Shown here: positions 33,401 to 42,400 of the stretch, in pieces
How positions within the stretch are numbered: the stretch's first letter is position 1
How the letters are laid out: every line of letters starts with the position of its first letter
Assembly (NCBI RefSeq): GCF_011045215.1
Contig: NZ_CP049201.1
Direction: 5' to 3' (one strand)
DNA: 64,000 nucleotides
Source of the DNA: Escherichia coli
GTDB taxonomy: Bacteria > Pseudomonadota > Gammaproteobacteria > Enterobacterales > Enterobacteriaceae
Position numbers: made by a program

Positions 33401-36400
33401 GCGTAATTCAGGTCAATGTCACAATTAACCATTGTCACAATAAGGTTGAACGGATATTCTGAGCACGGACCACGTAATATTCAATACATTATTTACTGCC
33501 GGGTTTTTCGTGAATCAACGTAATATGTCAATAATTAATTCCACGCCAGTGCGTGTTATTGCCATTGTAGGATGTGATGGTTCAGGTAAATCGACCCTCA
33601 CGGCAAGCCTGGTAAATGAACTGGCAGCAAGAATGCCAGCAGAACACATTTATCTCGGGCAATCGTCCGGGCGAATTGGCGAATGGATTTCACAGCTCCC
33701 TGTTATTGGCGCACCTTTTGGGCGTTATTTGCGAAGTAAAGCGGCACATGTGCACGAAAAGCCCTCAACACCGCCTGGCAATATTACTGCGCTGGTTATC
33801 TATCTGCTTTCCTGCTGGCGGGCGTACAAGTTTCGCAAAATGTTGTGTAAAAGCCAGCAAGGCTTTCTGCTCATCACCGACCGCTACCCGCAGGTTGAAG
33901 TGCCGGGGTTTCGCTTTGATGGCCCGCAATTGGCAAAAACCATGGGCGGTAACGGTTGGATAAAAATGTTAAGGCAGCGCGAGCTGAAGCTGTACCAATG
34001 GATGGCGTCTTATTTGCCCGTATTGTTGATTCGTCTTGGCATTGATGAACAAACCGCGTTTGCGCGTAAACCTGACCACCAACTGGCAGCGTTACAGGAA
34101 AAAATCGCCGTTACGCCGCAATTGACATTCAATGGCGCAAAGATCCTTGAACTGGATGGTCGGCAACCAGCCGATGAAATTCTGCAAGCGTCACTACGCG
34201 CAATTCACGCCGCGCTTTCCTGATCACCAAAATGGATAGGGGATGATTTAACGAATGGATGCACTACAAACACAAACTGTTATTAGTACAACCGCGCCGC
34301 AGCCCAACTACATTCCGGGGCTGATTGCGGTGGTCGGGTGTGATGGCACCGGTAAATCCACACTGACCACCGACCTGGTGAAATCGCTGCAACAACACTG
34401 GCAAACCGAGCGGCGCTATCTGGGGCTGCTCTCCGGCGAAGACGGCGACAAAATCAAACGATTGCCGTTGGTTGGCGTCTGGCTGGAACGGCGACTGGCG
34501 GCCAAATCCTCGAAAACCCAAAGCATGAAAACCAAATCTCCGGCGCTATGGGCGGCGGTGATTATGTACTGCTTCTCGCTGCGAAGAATGGCGAATCTAC
34601 GCAAGGTTCAGCGACTGGCGCAAAGTGGCGTTCTGGTGGTCAGCGATCGCTTCCCGCAGGCTGAAATTTCGGGCTTTTATTATGACGGACCGGGGATTGG
34701 CGTCGAACGTGCGACCGGGAAAATCAGCATGTTTCTGGCGCAGCGCGAACGGCGTTTATACCAACAAATGGCGCAATATCGCCCGGAATTAATTATTCGC
34801 CTGGGCATTGATATTGAGACTGCCATCTCCCGCAAGCCTGACCATGACTATGCCGAGCTGCAGGACAAAATCGGCGTCATGTCGACGATTGGCTATAACG
34901 GCACAAAAATTCTTGAGATTGATTCCAGAGCGCCCTACAGCGAAGTGCTGGAACAGGCACAGAAGGCGGTTTCTCTGGTTGCCATCGTTTCTGACCGCCG
35001 AAGTTTAACTTAAGGCTGGCGGGATACTTTTTACTATCAACGATAAGGTCAGGCTGAATTGGCGGGTTTTAACATCAAACATTGGTTTGCAGATGGCGCG
35101 TTTCGCACCATTATTCGCAATAGCGCCTGGTTAGGCTCCAGTAATGTCGTGAGCGCCTTGCTGGGGCTGTTGGCGCTCTCGTGTGCCGGTAAAGGGATGA
35201 CGCCCGCCATGTTTGGTGTACTGGTGATTGTGCAATCGTACGCCAAGTCGATCAGCGATTTTATTAAGTTTCAGACATGGCAGCTGGTGGTTCAGTACGG
35301 AACGCCAGCCTTGACCAACAATAATCCGCAGCAATTTCGCAATGTCGTCTCATTTTCCTTCTCGCTGGATATCGTCAGCGGCGCGGTGGCGATTGTCGGC
35401 GGCATTGCCTTACTGCCATTCCTTTCCCATTCATTAGGTCTGGATGACCAAAGCTTTTGGCTGGCGGCGCTGTATTGCACGCTCATTCCTTCAATGGCTT
35501 CCTCCACGCCGACCGGCATTCTGCGTGCGGTAGATCGCTTTGATTTGATTGCTGTACAGCAGGCGACGAAACCTTTTCTGCGCGCAGCGGGGAGCGTCGC
35601 AGCCTGGTATTTTGACTTTGGTTTTGCGGGTTTTGTTATTGCCTGGTACGCATCGAATCTGGTTGGCGGCACCATGTACTGGTGGTTTGCCGCGCGCGAA
35701 TTACGCCGCAGAAATATCCATAACGCCTTCAAATTGAATCTGTTTGAGTCTGCTCGACACATTAAAGGCGCGTGGAGTTTTGTCTGGTCAACCAACATTG
35801 CCCACTCCATCTGGTCGGCGCGTAACTCGTGCAGCACAGTGTTGGTGGGGATCGTGTTAGGACCCGCTGCCGCCGGGTTATTTAAAATCGCCATGACATT
35901 CTTCGACGCCGCCGGAACGCCAGCGGGTTTGCTGGGTAAAAGTTTTTACCCAGAGGTGATGCGTTTAGATCCGCGCACCACCAGACCGTGGTTGTTAGGC
36001 GTGAAGTCCGGTTTACTGGCGGGCGGAATCGGTATTCTGGTGGCGCTCGCGGTGTTGATCGTCGGCAAGCCGCTCATTTCGCTGGTGTTTGGCGTTAAGT
36101 ATCTCGAAGCGTATGACCTGATTCAGGTGATGCTGGGCGCAATTGTGATCTCGATGCTGGGCTTCCCTCAGGAGTCATTGCTATTGATGGCGGGAAAACA
36201 GCGCGCTTTTCTCGTGGCGCAAACCATCGCCTCAATCGGCTACATCGTATTGCTGTTCATGTTCTGTCATCTGTTTGGCGTGCTGGGAGCAGCGTTTGCT
36301 TATTTCGGCGGTCAATGTCTGGATGTGGTGCTTTCGCTAATTCCGACCTTAAAGGCATTTTTTCAGCGCCATTCCTTGCTTTATAACGCAGCCGGAGAGA

Positions 36401-39400: not shown

Positions 39401-42400
39401 AGGGCCAGCCGGTGGGCGTGGAGATATTTCATTATCGCGACGATCTCTCGCTCGAATCCTACATTTATGCACGCAGTGCCACCATTAAAGACGACAAAAT
39501 GTGGATCCTGCATGGTGTGAATCATAAAAAATGGCTTAACGGTAAAGAAACGCTGGAAACATCAGATAATCTTGCCTGGCAATCGGCCTTCACCAGTATG
39601 GATCTTGAAGAGCTATCGATGCCGGGGAATACTTTTTCTGTCCGTCAGCTTAATCATTACATCCATTATTTGCAGGAAACCGGGCAACCCAGCAGCGAAT
39701 ACCGCCTTGCACTGTGGGAAAAACTGGGGCATCCCATTTTAACCCTGGCGATGATTTTGCTGGCAGTGCCTTTTACCTTTAGTGCCCCGCGCTCGCCAGG
39801 GATGGGTAGCCGTCTCGCTGTAGGTGTCATCGTTGGCTTACTCACCTGGATCAGCTATCAAATCATGGTCAATCTGGGATTGCTATTTGCGTTGAGCGCA
39901 CCTGTTACCGCGCTCGGTTTACCGATAGCGTTTGTGCTGGTGGCGTTGAGCCTGGTGTATTGGTATGACAGACAACATTAAACCCGCCGTGGCGCAACAC
40001 CACGGCGGGCTCACATTACTGCTTCAGAGTAGCAAATGCCTGAATGATGGCATCGATTTGCTCACGACTGTGGGCAGCGTTTACGCTACAGCGCAGCAGC
40101 GTGATGCCTGCAGGCGCGGCAGGTGGCAGGATAAGATTCACATAAACGCCCAGCGAAATAAGCTCGCGCCAGATGCGTAAACCGTCCTCTTTCGAACCGA
40201 TTATTACCGGCACTACCGGGCTAATATGTGAACTTAACTCATAACCCAGTTTTTGCAGACCGTCATACAGATGGTTGGCATTATCCATCAGCTTTTGCCG
40301 CAGCTCTGGTTGTGTGGCAATAGTTCTTAACGACGAGCGCACGGTCGCAATGCAGGACGGAGAAGGAGAGGCGGTAAAAATATACGGGCGGCTGCCGTAG
40401 CGCAGCACTTCCATCGCTTCCGAACCGACAGCAAAACCGCCAATCGAGGCCAGACTTTTACTGAAGGTGCCAACGATAATATCCACATCATCTTCAACGC
40501 CTACAGCTTCAGCCAGTCCGTGCCCCGTTGCGCCTAACACGCCAAACGAATGCGCTTCATCGACAATCAAATAACCACCGAGACGACGTTTGATATCAAC
40601 AATTTCCGCCAGCGGCGCAACGTCACCGAGCATACTGTAGATGCCCTCAACGATGATAATCGCCTCTTTCGCCCGTTCACCGAGGCGAACCATGCGCCGT
40701 TCCAGATCTTTAGCATCGTTATGGCGGAAACGAATAATTTCCGCGCCACCGAGAGAACAGGCGTCATAAATACTGGCGTGGCTGTCGGCATCCAGTAACA
40801 CCACGGCGTTATGGTCGGCAAGTGCGCTGATGACGCCTAAATTAGCGGTATAACCGGTTGAAAAAACGATAGCGGTAGGGCGATTGAAAAACTCGGCAAT
40901 CTCTTTCTCTAACGCCAGGTGCGGCGCATAACTGCCGTTTGCCATACGAGAACCGGTGGTGCCGGTGCCTTGGGTCGCTAACGCTGCCTGACCTTCGGCG
41001 ATGGCATCATGATTAAAGGTTAAACCGAGGTAATTATTGGTCCCGGCCAGAATCACTTTTTTATTGCCGATCCGGCCTTCGGTGGCGGAATACACTTCAT
41101 CAATACAGGTGCCAAACGGTGTTAACCCGTTGTCACTAAATTGCAGTCGCTCGCCAGCAAGGCGCGCATATTTATCGTATAGCCCCATTATTTATTCTCC
41201 AGCCATGGAAGTAGAGTTTCCATTAATTGCGCAGGGGTTTTGACATCCAGCAGAATATTAATAGGAATGGAAATATCGAATCTGTCTTCCAGCATCATTA
41301 AGAGATCCATCACTTTGATCGACTCCAGGCCAAGATCGTTGACGAGATCGCTGTCGGGCTTAATTTCCACACCGTTTTCGACCAAATCCTGTAAACAGGA
41401 AAGGATGTAATCCATTACTATTTCACGATTTACCATAGAAACGTTAACACACCTTTAAACAAGACAATCAAAATAGCCCGTTGCGTAATGCGTGTTCCAG
41501 GCTAATCCCGGGAAACCAATTAATATCTTCAGAAATACGGTTATTACTTGCCGACCAGTCGGCGTGGGTTAATTCACGAATTTTCGAGCGGGTCAGCATA
41601 GGTTCTTTACCTGCCAGGCGACTCAACGCGGTACTGATATCCGCAAGGCAGGTGAGTACCGGCAGAGGAATGCCAACCATTCGCACGGAACCACAACGGG
41701 CGTCGGCGGCAAGTTGCTGTACGCGTTGCCAGTCATAGCCGCCAGCGACGCCATCGCATAATTCATAGGTTTGCGTCTGTACAGTTTCGGCGCTTAACCA
41801 CTGACCCACTGCTTGCGCGAAATCGGTGACGTGCAGGAAAGAGAGCTGTGTATCTGGCGCACCAAGTCGTGGCAGCAGGCCGCGCAGCATCCAGTCAAAC
41901 AGCGGTTTTAACTCTTTATCGCCGGGGCCATACACGGCTGTCGGGCGAAAAACGCCCAGCGTAATTTTGTCAGCCATTGCAGTCAGCCGTTGTTCGGCGA
42001 CATATTTGGAATTTGCGTACCAGGAGAGTTCGGGATGGCGCGCCGCCAGCGAAGGGATAAACAGAAAACGTTGGCAAAAACCGCTCTCTTTTGCCGCCTG
42101 CATCAGGCGCAGACTGCCGTCAACGTTACAGCGGGTGAAAATCTCTTCTTTGTGCCCGCGCACTTGTCCGGCGCAATGAACCACCGCGCTGGCTCCGGCA
42201 ACCAGTTCGCTAAGCGAATGTGTATCTTCCAGCGAACCGCGCACCCAGGTGAGATTATCATTGACGTGAGCGCGGGCAGTACGCGTCAATGCGCGAACGT
42301 GAAAGCAGCGGGCGAGCAGGTTATCGATAATATATTTACCGATAAACCCGGTAGCGCCCGTCACCGCGACAATTTGATTCATGCCAGGGATTCCTGCACA

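What the first reader, a model, noticed from the sequence alone, without database searches (positions are those of the whole stretch)
33510..39981. Seven-gene tightly packed operon linking kinases, a flippase, a periplasmic protein and the permease pair, convergent on the lipid-synthesis operon
yghS, yghR, yghQ, the 274-aa ORF, the YtfJ-like ORF and the two permease genes are all on the plus strand with gaps of 0-45 nt or overlapping stop/start codons (TGATG at 36408, ATGA at 38902). This implies one transcript and a shared function: cytoplasmic modification, flipping across the inner membrane, then periplasmic handling and extraction to the outer membrane. It ends 2 nt before a perfect 10-bp hairpin that is shared with the convergent spt-like operon. 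The architecture reads as an envelope-lipid assembly and export line that has not been described as a unit.
Basis: partly seen in the sequence, partly recalled or inferred. Interest (0 to 1): 0.8.

Follow-up and report, generated by a model that had tools for sequence, protein, structure and literature searches.

The report
E. coli sphingolipid modification-and-export operon
This tightly packed seven-gene operon is real and is most likely the head-group-modification and export half of the sphingolipid gene cluster that most E. coli carry and K-12 has lost; the cluster is partly described already, but its kinases, CHAD-like protein and YtfJ-like protein are unstudied.

Summary
yghS, yghR, yghQ, a 274-aa ORF, a YtfJ paralogue and an LptF/LptG paralogue pair lie on the + strand with gaps of 31, 45, -1, 8, 30 and -4 nt. 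They end one base before a strong 10-bp hairpin shared with the convergent spt-acpR-cerR-aasR operon.

The window is E. coli. The K-12-missing part is present in 4063 of 5426 complete genomes; K-12 lost 8.4 kb to an IS5-associated deletion.

The same 13 genes stay together in at least four shuffled layouts across Enterobacterales. In Rhodanobacteraceae, spt overlaps yghQ, which overlaps the 274-aa gene. All 13 genes are under purifying selection (dN/dS 0.03-0.16).

The 274-aa protein is a divergent CHAD-fold protein. YghS/R/T are thymidylate-kinase-fold paralogues but not dTMP kinases. YghQ is a MOP flippase. The permeases are 28-31% identical to canonical LptF/G.

The export-line reading is supported, but the claim that it is undescribed is only partly right. 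E. coli BL21 spt genes have been assayed, Caulobacter LptF2G2 are implicated in sphingolipid transport, and the E. coli UTI89 locus has been drawn.

What is new is a conserved kinase, flippase and CHAD-like core, different from Caulobacter's CpgABC pathway. Co-transcription and the lipid product are untested.

The parts
32644..33336 (-). yghT: third thymidylate-kinase-fold P-loop paralogue, divergent from the operon
   Evidence: ORF. It is 37% identical to YghS and 34% to YghR. It co-occurs with the set in almost all loci. Its dTMP-kinase NCBIfam score is 24.6 against a cut-off of 83.
33337..33509 (.). Divergent yghT/yghS control region. It holds the palindrome ACAAT-N5-ATTGT (33421-33435) and two boxes conserved across genera (33454-33464 and 33475-33485) that look like -35 and -10 elements.
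   Evidence: Sequence and coordinates. The palindrome and boxes recur in Escherichia, Pseudocitrobacter, Hafnia, Citrobacter and Shimwellia intergenic regions. No function was tested.
33510..34223 (+). yghS: thymidylate-kinase-fold P-loop kinase paralogue, soluble and cytoplasmic
34255..35013 (+). yghR: thymidylate-kinase-fold P-loop kinase paralogue
35059..36408 (+). yghQ: MOP-superfamily (Polysacc_synt) flippase, TTG start; truncated in K-12
   Evidence: Pfam PF01943 at E 2e-8. NCBIfam MOP flippase at E 3e-8. Several hydrophobic, membrane-spanning segments. K-12 homology stops at 36127.
36408..37232 (+). orf274: soluble all-alpha protein with a divergent CHAD-like fold; its start overlaps the yghQ stop
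37241..37804 (+). ytfJ2: periplasmic YtfJ-family paralogue with a Sec-type signal peptide and no cysteine
   Evidence: TIGR01626 score 212 against cut-off 151. PF09695 at E 2e-59. N-terminal hydrophobic segment ending ...PGVQA/HN.
37835..38905 (+). lptF2: LptF paralogue (permease half of an Lpt-type lipid extractor)
   Evidence: TIGR04407 score 318 against cut-off 230. It is 31% identical to K-12 LptF and the coupling-helix SEIT motif with E84 is conserved.
38902..39981 (+). lptG2: LptG paralogue; ATGA overlap with lptF2
   Evidence: TIGR04408 score 305 against cut-off 240. It is 28% identical to K-12 LptG and the E88 equivalent is conserved.
39983..40009 (.). Hairpin between the two convergent stop codons; candidate bidirectional terminator
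40016..41188 (-). spt: serine palmitoyltransferase (partner operon)
   Evidence: RefSeq annotation. The E. coli BL21 enzyme has been assayed (PMC9386255).
41188..41436 (-). acpR: specialised acyl carrier protein
   Evidence: PMC9386255.
41468..42382 (-). cerR/epi: SDR-type reductase
   Evidence: PMC9386255.
42379..44067 (-). aasR: acyl-AcpR synthetase
   Evidence: PMC9386255.
44472..45614 (+). yghO: homologue of the bacterial ceramide synthase/N-acyltransferase (aca/bCerS)
   Evidence: PMC9386255 Fig. 9 legend.

Best explanation
The seven genes, together with divergent yghT, are the head-group-modification and envelope-export half of the E. coli sphingolipid locus. The convergent aasR-cerR-acpR-spt operon and yghO make the ceramide backbone; this is shown for the first step in E. 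coli BL21 and by homology for the rest.

The following steps are inferred. The three thymidylate-kinase-fold paralogues YghT/S/R phosphorylate the ceramide head group, or a phosphate already on it, at the cytoplasmic face of the inner membrane. The CHAD-like protein, whose start overlaps the yghQ stop, binds the resulting anionic, phosphate-rich head group and hands it to the flippase or regulates it. YghQ, a MOP-family flippase, moves the lipid to the periplasmic leaflet. LptF2/LptG2, powered by the cell's single LptB as in Caulobacter, extract it from the inner membrane for delivery to the outer membrane. The cysteine-free periplasmic YtfJ paralogue acts at the periplasmic step in Enterobacterales.

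The genes are probably co-transcribed from a promoter in the yghT/yghS intergenic region and end at the shared hairpin. K-12 cannot do any of this, because an IS5-associated deletion removed the region from the 3' end of yghQ through aasR.
For: Identity and spread. The window is E. coli. The K-12-missing 8.4 kb is present at >=80% coverage in 4063 of 5426 complete genomes. K-12 has IS5 in place of window 36128-44511. GC content is native, 0.50 against 0.518 for the window. All 13 genes have dN/dS of 0.03-0.16 against other Escherichia clades.

Linkage. The 13 genes co-localise in at least four rearranged layouts across about 16 enterobacterial genera. In Rhodanobacter the order is yghS-yghR-(lipid 2-hydroxylase)-aasR-cerR-acpR-spt-yghQ-orf274, with the spt/yghQ/orf274 junctions overlapping. 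The core of kinases, yghQ and orf274 is also conserved in Sphingomonadales, and looser versions occur in Acetobacteraceae; both groups are known sphingolipid producers (my own knowledge). The yghQ/orf274 overlap is conserved in 42 of 66 loci.

Protein families. The LptF2/G2 paralogues keep the coupling-helix glutamates, and the cluster encodes no ABC ATPase. A dgkA-like lipid-kinase gene is embedded in the cluster in 12 loci of the set scanned (seen also in L004/L005), which points to a phosphorylated lipid product.

Literature. E. coli BL21 Spt, AcpR and AasR are active (PMC9386255). Caulobacter lptF2/G2 can be deleted only when anionic sphingolipid synthesis is off, and the proteins pull down LptB (bioRxiv 10.64898/2026.04.12.717747). 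A Polysacc_synt flippase, CC_1166, is proposed for Caulobacter (PMC11324152 S1 Text).
Against: No native E. coli sphingolipid has been reported in the library searched. BL21 with empty vectors shows no extra lipids under laboratory conditions (PMC9386255), so the cluster may be silent or conditional.

The kinase substrate is unknown. The fold is that of nucleotide kinases, and nothing shows they act on a lipid. The known bacterial ceramide kinase CpgB belongs to a different family, DAGK/LCB5.

The CHAD link rests on fold and on weak hits in distant family members; the E. coli protein itself has no Pfam hit. MOP flippases classically carry undecaprenyl-diphosphate-linked glycans.

In the Sphingomonadales, Rhodanobacteraceae and Acetobacteraceae loci sampled, neither lptF2G2 nor ytfJ2 lies within 10 kb of the core. 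The full seven-gene line is therefore an enterobacterial arrangement. Co-transcription is untested, and consensus promoter and terminator scans were at chance level.
Confidence: 0.7

Rival explanations
1. The operon does serve the sphingolipid pathway, but the kinases and the CHAD-like protein do not touch the lipid. They make or bind a soluble phosphorylated head-group donor or a polyphosphate-type molecule, or they regulate the pathway. Only YghQ and LptF2G2 handle the lipid.
For: The YghR fold is closest to nucleotide monophosphate kinases. The proteins are soluble with no hydrophobic segment. The solved CHAD structures that top the fold search include a polyphosphate-associated protein and the CHAD domain of the E. 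coli triphosphatase YgiF; that CHAD domains bind soluble inorganic polyphosphate is my own knowledge, not read here. In some Sphingomonadales, Acetobacteraceae and betaproteobacterial loci a GT4 glycosyltransferase sits beside the core, so an activated sugar or other donor might be the kinase substrate.
Against: The E. coli cluster encodes no nucleotidyl- or glycosyltransferase that could use such a donor. The overlap of orf274 with the flippase gene is conserved across orders, which suggests a physical partnership at the membrane. dgkA-like lipid kinase genes inside some clusters point to lipid phosphorylation.
Confidence: 0.2
2. The operon belongs to LPS or surface-polysaccharide biogenesis, as the RefSeq names suggest ('lipopolysaccharide biosynthesis protein', 'LPS export ABC transporter permease LptF/LptG'). 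On this view its position next to spt is incidental.
For: LptF2 and LptG2 pass the NCBIfam LptF/LptG equivalog cut-offs. YghQ matches Polysacc_synt/Wzx-type families.
Against: Canonical lptF and lptG lie elsewhere in E. coli and are only 31% and 28% identical. The E. coli cluster has no glycosyltransferase. Linkage to spt-acpR-cerR-aasR persists through several rearrangements, and the genes are interleaved in Rhodanobacteraceae. K-12 lacks the genes yet makes and exports LPS (established knowledge).
Confidence: 0.06
3. The tight packing is a leftover of chance juxtaposition, or the region is a decaying relic: unrelated y-genes sitting beside an spt island.
For: K-12 and about a quarter of complete E. 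coli genomes lack the central part. No product is seen in BL21 under laboratory conditions.
Against: All ORFs are intact and dN/dS is 0.03-0.16. The set is conserved in 75% of E. coli genomes and across many genera and four orders, with a conserved overlapping junction.
Confidence: 0.03
4. YghT and YghS are dTMP kinases, as RefSeq names them, and serve nucleotide metabolism.
For: Thymidylate-kinase fold and weak TIGR00041 hits.
Against: Scores of 24-32 bits are far below the 83-bit cut-off. There are three paralogues with family-specific insertions and motifs. They are always found in the sphingolipid-linked cluster. E. coli has an essential tmk elsewhere (established knowledge).
Confidence: 0.02

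Closest known systems
Caulobacter crescentus sphingolipid locus CC_1152-CC_1168 (CCNA_01212-01226): ceramide genes, CpgABC head-group genes, candidate flippase CC_1166, LptF2/LptG2/LptC2
   Same: It has the same ceramide gene set (aasR, cerR, acpR, spt, bCerS/yghO). It has a Polysacc_synt-family flippase candidate and an extra LptF/LptG pair encoded in the locus with no dedicated LptB. The overall logic is the same: make the lipid, modify the head group, flip it, and extract it with an Lpt-type permease (PMC11324152; bioRxiv 10.64898/2026.04.12.717747).
   Different: E. coli has no CpgA/B/C-type genes (Tam41-like, DAGK/LCB5 ceramide kinase, CDP-alcohol transferase), no nucleotidyltransferases and no LptC2. 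In their place it has three thymidylate-kinase-fold paralogues, a CHAD-like protein and a YtfJ paralogue, none of which is listed in the Caulobacter locus. The head group is therefore probably different.
E. coli BL21(DE3) ECD_02850-ECD_02854 sphingolipid biosynthesis cluster (Padilla-Gomez et al. 2022, PMC9386255)
   Same: This is the same chromosomal locus; the convergent operon of this finding is that published cluster.
   Different: The parts of that paper read here (its genomic-organisation section and Fig. 9 legend) cover only the five ceramide-synthesis genes and say nothing about the seven-gene operon.
Canonical LptB2FGC lipopolysaccharide extractor
   Same: LptF2/G2 belong to the same family and have similar lengths. 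The coupling-helix glutamates are conserved, and the two genes overlap as lptF/lptG do.
   Different: They are only 28-31% identical. There is no adjacent lptB, lptC or lptA. They are dispensable in K-12. The genomic context is sphingolipid genes, not LPS genes.
CHAD domains (Pfam PF05235; PDB 6qv5, 3e0s, 6rn5, YgiF 5a61)
   Different: The E. coli protein has no detectable sequence match. It is encoded next to a lipid flippase rather than polyphosphate enzymes. It also has invariant Asp residues (D123, D238). No ligand is known.
Thymidylate kinase / NMP-kinase P-loop family
   Different: Scores are far below the family cut-off. The family has its own insertion (roughly residues 56-97 of YghR). 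There are three paralogues, always in a lipid-related context.

Membership tests
LptF/LptG permease family (PF03739; TIGR04407/TIGR04408) | Full-length match above the curated cut-off, with transmembrane blocks flanking a periplasmic domain | tested here: met
   LptF2 scores 318 bits against cut-off 230; LptG2 scores 305 against 240. Hydrophobic blocks lie at both ends.
The LPS exporter LptF/LptG proper (orthologues of b4261/b4262) | Being the cell's LPS permease pair: orthologous sequence, the essential locus, LPS as substrate | tested here: not met
   The pair is only 31% and 28% identical to K-12 LptF and LptG, which lie at a different locus. The pair is absent from viable K-12. Substrate was not testable.
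Sphingolipid-locus LptF2/LptG2 (Caulobacter type) | [quoted passage not shown] | tested here: met
   The pair is adjacent to and convergent with spt. The cluster has no ABC ATPase. Linkage to spt is conserved in Enterobacterales.
Sphingolipid-locus LptF2/LptG2 (Caulobacter type) | Binds LptB; deletion is lethal only while anionic sphingolipid is made | not testable with these tools
   Only indirect support: the coupling-helix Glu residues are conserved. A phylogeny with CCNA_01213/01214 could not be made because those sequences were not retrievable.
MOP/Polysacc_synt flippase (PF01943) | Pfam match plus a polytopic membrane protein of about 450 aa | tested here: met
   PF01943 at E 2e-8 and PF13440 at E 2.5e-7. 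Several hydrophobic, membrane-spanning segments. Orthologues carry the same Pfam hits.
dTMP kinase (TIGR00041 / PF02223), the RefSeq name of YghT and YghS | Score above the curated cut-off | tested here: not met
   24.6, 24.6 and 32.0 bits against a cut-off of 83.25. Pfam Thymidylate_kin at E 0.011 only. The fold is shared, but membership fails.
Bacterial ceramide kinase CpgB (DAGK_cat/LCB5, GGDG motif) | DAG-kinase catalytic domain | tested here: not met
   YghS/R/T have a P-loop NMP-kinase fold. CpgB is an LCB5/DAGK-type enzyme (PMC10331486). They could still work as lipid kinases, but they are not CpgB relatives.
CHAD domain (PF05235) | Sequence match to the Pfam model | tested here: inconclusive
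   The E. coli protein has no hit even at E<=10. Seven of 50 family members hit at E<=0.1, the best at 2.5e-5. A distant fused member carries a 'faint' CHAD hit.
CHAD domain (PF05235) | All-alpha CHAD fold | tested here: met
CHAD domain (PF05235) | Binds inorganic polyphosphate | not testable with these tools
   Conserved basic and His residues are present, but no binding data exist.
YtfJ family (TIGR01626 / PF09695) | Match above the cut-off | tested here: met
   212 bits against cut-off 151. PF09695 at E 2e-59. The family itself has no known function.
Operon (single transcription unit) | One transcript spanning all seven genes | not testable with these tools
   Spacing of -4 to 45 nt and no convincing internal terminator. 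The gene order is kept in E. coli- and Serratia-type genomes but split in Sodalis- and Rosenbergiella-type genomes.

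The most novel reading that the evidence does not exclude
E. coli, many other Enterobacterales, Rhodanobacteraceae and Sphingomonadales may share an undescribed sphingolipid head-group pathway. In it, NMP-kinase-like P-loop enzymes (YghT/S/R) add successive phosphates to ceramide-1-phosphate. That first phosphate would be made by DgkA or a cluster-encoded DgkA paralogue. 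The result would be a ceramide di- or tri-phosphate (oligophosphate) head group. A CHAD-like protein would hold this head group, the MOP flippase YghQ would flip it in the way MOP flippases carry lipid-diphosphate substrates, and in Enterobacterales LptB-LptF2G2 would export it to the outer membrane. That would be a new class of bacterial outer-membrane lipid, in the best-studied bacterium.
Probability: 0.12. Interest if true: 0.85.

Novelty: new variant of a known kind. Interest (0 to 1): 0.6.

Why it matters
Most natural E. coli carry an intact, selectively maintained sphingolipid locus that K-12 lost, which may be why its products have gone unnoticed.

How bacterial sphingolipids cross the envelope was called a mystery as recently as the 2026 Caulobacter preprint. 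The E. coli operon puts a candidate flippase, an Lpt-type extractor and unstudied accessory proteins in a genetically tractable host with a natural null strain.

The kinase, flippase and CHAD-like core is conserved from Enterobacterales to Sphingomonadales and differs from Caulobacter's CpgABC route. It therefore probably specifies a different head group. It gives concrete gene targets for finding what sphingolipid E. coli and its relatives (including ST131, O111 and UTI89-type pathogens) make, when they make it, and how it affects the outer membrane, antibiotic permeability and host interaction.

The work also exposes misleading database names: a duplicate 'lptF/lptG', 'dTMP kinase' for YghT/S, and 'transcriptional regulator' for K-12 YghO.

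Tried and rejected
- Anti-phage defence: the PADLOC scan of nine proteins gave only trivial P-loop hits, so this was rejected.
- Horizontal-transfer island: GC content is native and the locus is chromosomal, single-copy and 95-99% identical across E. coli, so this was rejected.
- Real dTMP kinases: rejected on curated cut-offs.
- Sequence searches for orf274: Pfam, NCBIfam and a PDB profile search found nothing significant. Only fold comparison and scans of distant family members gave the CHAD link.
- NCBIfam scan of nine long or multidomain relatives of orf274 found nothing. By local comparison, some are tandem duplications, some carry signal peptides, and some carry what look by eye like kinase or nucleotidyltransferase motifs. 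An APH-type kinase domain was confirmed only for P0236.
- The 50-sequence alignment A2 was too divergent for the search for related loci; the closer alignment A3 worked.
- Literature on yghQ/R/S: only a chlorhexidine-adaptation study of K-12, where the gene is truncated, with a weak twofold MIC effect and no complementation. It is not informative.
- Literature on YtfJ: no functional data.
- Literature on native E. coli sphingolipids: nothing in the library.
- The Nat Chem Biol 2022 paper on bacterial ceramide synthesis is not held.
- Consensus promoter and terminator scans were at chance level and cannot settle the transcript structure.
- I could not retrieve Caulobacter LptF2/G2 or CC_1166 sequences for a direct phylogeny.

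Full report
**1. What is there**

The window is an Escherichia coli chromosome segment, gss-pitB-yghT ... yghO-glcC. It is 99.5% identical to strain PapM-32-1 over 8 kb.

Seven intact ORFs lie on the + strand between 33510 and 39981:
- yghS, 237 aa
- yghR, 252 aa
- yghQ, 449 aa, TTG start
- an unnamed 274-aa ORF (orf274)
- a 187-aa YtfJ-family ORF (ytfJ2)
- two permease genes that RefSeq calls lptF and lptG (here lptF2, lptG2)

The junctions are 31, 45, -1, 8, 30 and -4 nt.

The lptG2 stop ends at 39981. A perfect 10-bp stem (39983-39992 and 40000-40009) follows after one base, and the stop codon of the convergent spt gene begins at 40016. The hairpin folds at -21.9 kcal/mol on the + strand and -29.9 kcal/mol on the - strand, far better than shuffled sequence. 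Most other loci with this layout carry a GC-rich hairpin of different sequence at the same junction.

**2. Place in E. coli**

K-12 MG1655 is homologous up to window 36127 and again from 44512. An IS5 element sits between these points. K-12 therefore lacks the 3' end of yghQ, orf274, ytfJ2, lptF2, lptG2, spt, acpR, cerR, aasR and the first 40 nt of yghO. This explains why yghQ/R/S/T/O are orphan y-genes in K-12.

The missing 8.4 kb is present at >=80% coverage in 4063 of 5426 complete E. coli genomes, including ST131 and O111:H8 strains. It is on the chromosome in all but one case and usually single-copy. GC content is native. Against two other Escherichia clades, all 13 genes of the locus have dN/dS between 0.03 and 0.16. 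They are maintained, not decaying.

**3. What the proteins are**

- **LptF2 and LptG2** pass the NCBIfam LptF and LptG cut-offs but are only 31% and 28% identical to the canonical K-12 proteins, which are encoded elsewhere. The glutamates of the coupling helices are conserved. These correspond to LptF E84 and LptG E88, which from my own knowledge contact LptB.
- **YghQ** is a Polysacc_synt/MOP flippase with several membrane-spanning hydrophobic segments.
- **ytfJ2** encodes a YtfJ-family protein with a Sec-type signal peptide and no cysteine. The family has no known function.

**4. Comparative genomics**

I fetched 79 loci encoding orf274 relatives from one genome per species and located homologues of all 13 E. 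coli proteins in them.

In Enterobacterales the 13 genes stay together in at least four different layouts:
- **E. coli type**: also Pseudocitrobacter, Hafnia, Citrobacter, Shimwellia, Pluralibacter and some Erwinia.
- **Serratia type**: the spt operon lies upstream and co-directional, not convergent. Also Pantoea, Klebsiella indica, Cedecea and Mangrovibacter.
- **Sodalis/Rosenbergiella type**: lptG2-lptF2 on one strand, yghQ-orf274 on the other, ytfJ2 on either side, and yghR-yghS and yghT beyond yghO.
- **An Erwinia sp. JUb26 / Pantoea coffeiphila / Rahnella variant.**

Outside Enterobacterales:
- In Rhodanobacteraceae (Luteibacter, Rhodanobacter, Dyella) the order is yghT(-), then yghS, yghR, a lipid acyl 2-hydroxylase (OlsC/LpxO-like), aasR, cerR, acpR, spt, yghQ and orf274. 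In Rhodanobacter, spt overlaps yghQ and yghQ overlaps orf274.
- In Sphingomonadales the conserved unit is two or three kinases, then yghQ, then orf274, often next to a two-component system.
- Acetobacteraceae have looser versions.

The yghQ/orf274 junction overlaps by 4 or 1 nt in 42 of 66 loci.

Two conclusions follow. The genes are functionally linked to ceramide synthesis, not juxtaposed by chance. The indivisible sub-units are [yghS-yghR], [yghQ-orf274] and [lptF2-lptG2]. The full seven-gene string, the lptF2G2 link and ytfJ2 were seen only in Enterobacterales in this sample.

**5. Comparison with what is known**

- The convergent operon plus yghO is the published E. coli BL21 sphingolipid cluster ECD_02850-02854. 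Its AcpR, AasR and Spt have been assayed. Overexpression gave 3-oxo-sphinganine plus sphinganine- and ceramide-like spots, 'possibly by intrinsic enzymes'. Empty-vector cells showed nothing new (PMC9386255).
- In Caulobacter, the 17-gene region CC_1152-CC_1168 is described as a sphingolipid biosynthesis and transport region. It contains LptF2, LptG2, LptC2 and a Polysacc_synt flippase candidate, CC_1166 (PMC11324152).
- A 2026 preprint shows that lptF2, lptG2 and lptC2 can be deleted only when anionic sphingolipid synthesis is off. It also shows that LptF2 and LptG2 co-purify with each other and with LptB. The legend of its Fig. 2B says it shows the sphingolipid operons of E. coli UTI89.

The general idea of a sphingolipid assembly-and-export line with an Lpt-type extractor is therefore known, and the E. 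coli locus has been noticed.

What differs is the head-group part. Caulobacter uses CpgB (a DAGK/LCB5 ceramide kinase), a Tam41-like enzyme, a CDP-alcohol transferase and nucleotidyltransferases. E. coli has none of these. It has three thymidylate-kinase-fold paralogues, a CHAD-like protein and a YtfJ paralogue, none of which is mentioned in the papers I could read. No paper in the library reports a native E. coli sphingolipid.

**6. Most likely mechanism**

- *Shown elsewhere or by strong homology:* AasR, AcpR and Spt, then YghO and CerR, make ceramide.
- *Inferred from conserved linkage and family:* YghQ flips the finished or partly finished lipid. LptF2G2 extract it using LptB, since the cluster encodes no ATPase.
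- *Inferred more weakly:* YghT/S/R phosphorylate the head group at the cytoplasmic face. The CHAD-like protein, with its conserved basic and His residues and its start overlapping the flippase gene's stop, binds the anionic head group. YtfJ2 acts in the periplasm.

A dgkA-like integral-membrane lipid kinase gene lies inside the cluster in 12 Sodalis/Rosenbergiella-type loci of the set scanned (seen also in L004/L005). E. coli DgkA is known to phosphorylate ceramide in vitro (my own knowledge). This supports a phosphorylated product. Because NMP kinases phosphorylate a phosphate acceptor, it also suggests the speculative reading that the P-loop enzymes extend ceramide-1-phosphate to an oligophosphate. 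I give that reading about 12%.

**7. Rivals**

- An LPS or polysaccharide role, as the RefSeq names imply, is contradicted by the context and by K-12 viability.
- Chance juxtaposition or decay is contradicted by conservation and purifying selection.
- True dTMP kinases are excluded by the curated cut-offs.
- A softer rival remains open at about 20%: the kinases and CHAD-like protein may act on a soluble precursor or in regulation rather than on the lipid.

**8. Verdict**

The finding is not categorically new. It is the E. coli variant of a sphingolipid synthesis-and-export locus that is now being worked out in Caulobacter.

It contains a conserved, uncharacterised kinase, flippase and CHAD-like core that differs from the known pathway. 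It offers a tractable system, with K-12 as a natural deletion, for finding the E. coli sphingolipid and its export route. I score interest at 0.6.

Noticed in passing
window 33417-33440 (palindrome core 33421-33435); also 33454-33464 and 33475-33485: The divergent yghT/yghS intergenic region carries TGTCACAATTAACCATTGTCACAA, which contains the palindrome ACAAT-N5-ATTGT. Downstream are two boxes that resemble -35 and -10 elements. The palindrome recurs in Escherichia, Hafnia and Citrobacter, with looser versions in Pseudocitrobacter and Shimwellia; the boxes also align with Serratia-type promoter regions. This is a candidate operator for an unknown regulator.
   Followed up: partly
window 36128-44511, compared with L006 (K-12 MG1655 3130146-3131340): K-12 has IS5 in place of 8,384 bp, which truncates yghQ and replaces the first 40 nt of yghO. 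The K-12 product name 'putative DNA-binding transcriptional regulator YghO' is therefore attached to an N-terminally altered homologue of the bacterial ceramide synthase.
   Followed up: yes
window 32644-34223 and 37835-39981 (RefSeq names seen in L001): The annotation pipeline names YghT and YghS 'dTMP kinase' although they score far below the family cut-off. It names the paralogues 'lptF' and 'lptG' because they pass the equivalog cut-offs. Genomes with this locus therefore carry two genes called lptF and two called lptG.
   Followed up: yes
L004/L005 17823-18182; also L014, L015, L028, L029, L039, L046-L048, L050-L052, L055: A 119-aa DgkA-like (PF01219) integral-membrane lipid kinase gene sits inside the cluster in Sodalis/Rosenbergiella-type layouts (between yghO and yghR in L004/L005; positions in the other loci are consistent with this, except L015). 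It is absent from the E. coli window.
   Followed up: partly
L049 3455-4213, L053 3525-4283, L060 3498-4256: In Rhodanobacteraceae an OlsC/LpxO-like lipid acyl 2-hydroxylase gene (E 2.5e-64 to OlsC, below the cut-off) lies between the kinase genes and aasR. This suggests a 2-hydroxylated acyl chain on the product.
   Followed up: partly
L063, L064, L069, L074, L078 (about 4700-7000, - strand); L061 11172-13136: In Sphingomonadales and Carnimonas, an OmpR-family response regulator gene and a neighbouring gene that looks, by eye, like a sensor histidine kinase sit next to the kinase-flippase-orf274 core. The pair may control it.
   Followed up: no
L024 and L034 (Pluralibacter); L049 and L056 (Luteibacter); P0122: Extra copies of the orf274 family exist. 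Pluralibacter has solo paralogues away from the cluster, Luteibacter has tandem duplicates, and one 564-aa protein consists of two fused copies. More distant relatives carry signal peptides or lipoprotein-like N-termini, so some family members are exported.
   Followed up: no
L062, L082-L085 (for example L062 11721-12806): A GT4-family glycosyltransferase gene lies near the core in Sphingobium, Acetobacter, Komagataeibacter and a betaproteobacterial MAG. It directly flanks yghQ in Acetobacter and orf274 in the MAG. The pathway's product may be glycosylated in those lineages.
   Followed up: partly
window 39983-40009: On the + strand the hairpin is not followed by a U-run (CUCACAUUACUGC), and on the - strand only by UUUAAUG. 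It is therefore not a textbook intrinsic terminator for the seven-gene operon. It may act mainly on the spt transcript or as a 3'-end stabiliser.
   Followed up: partly
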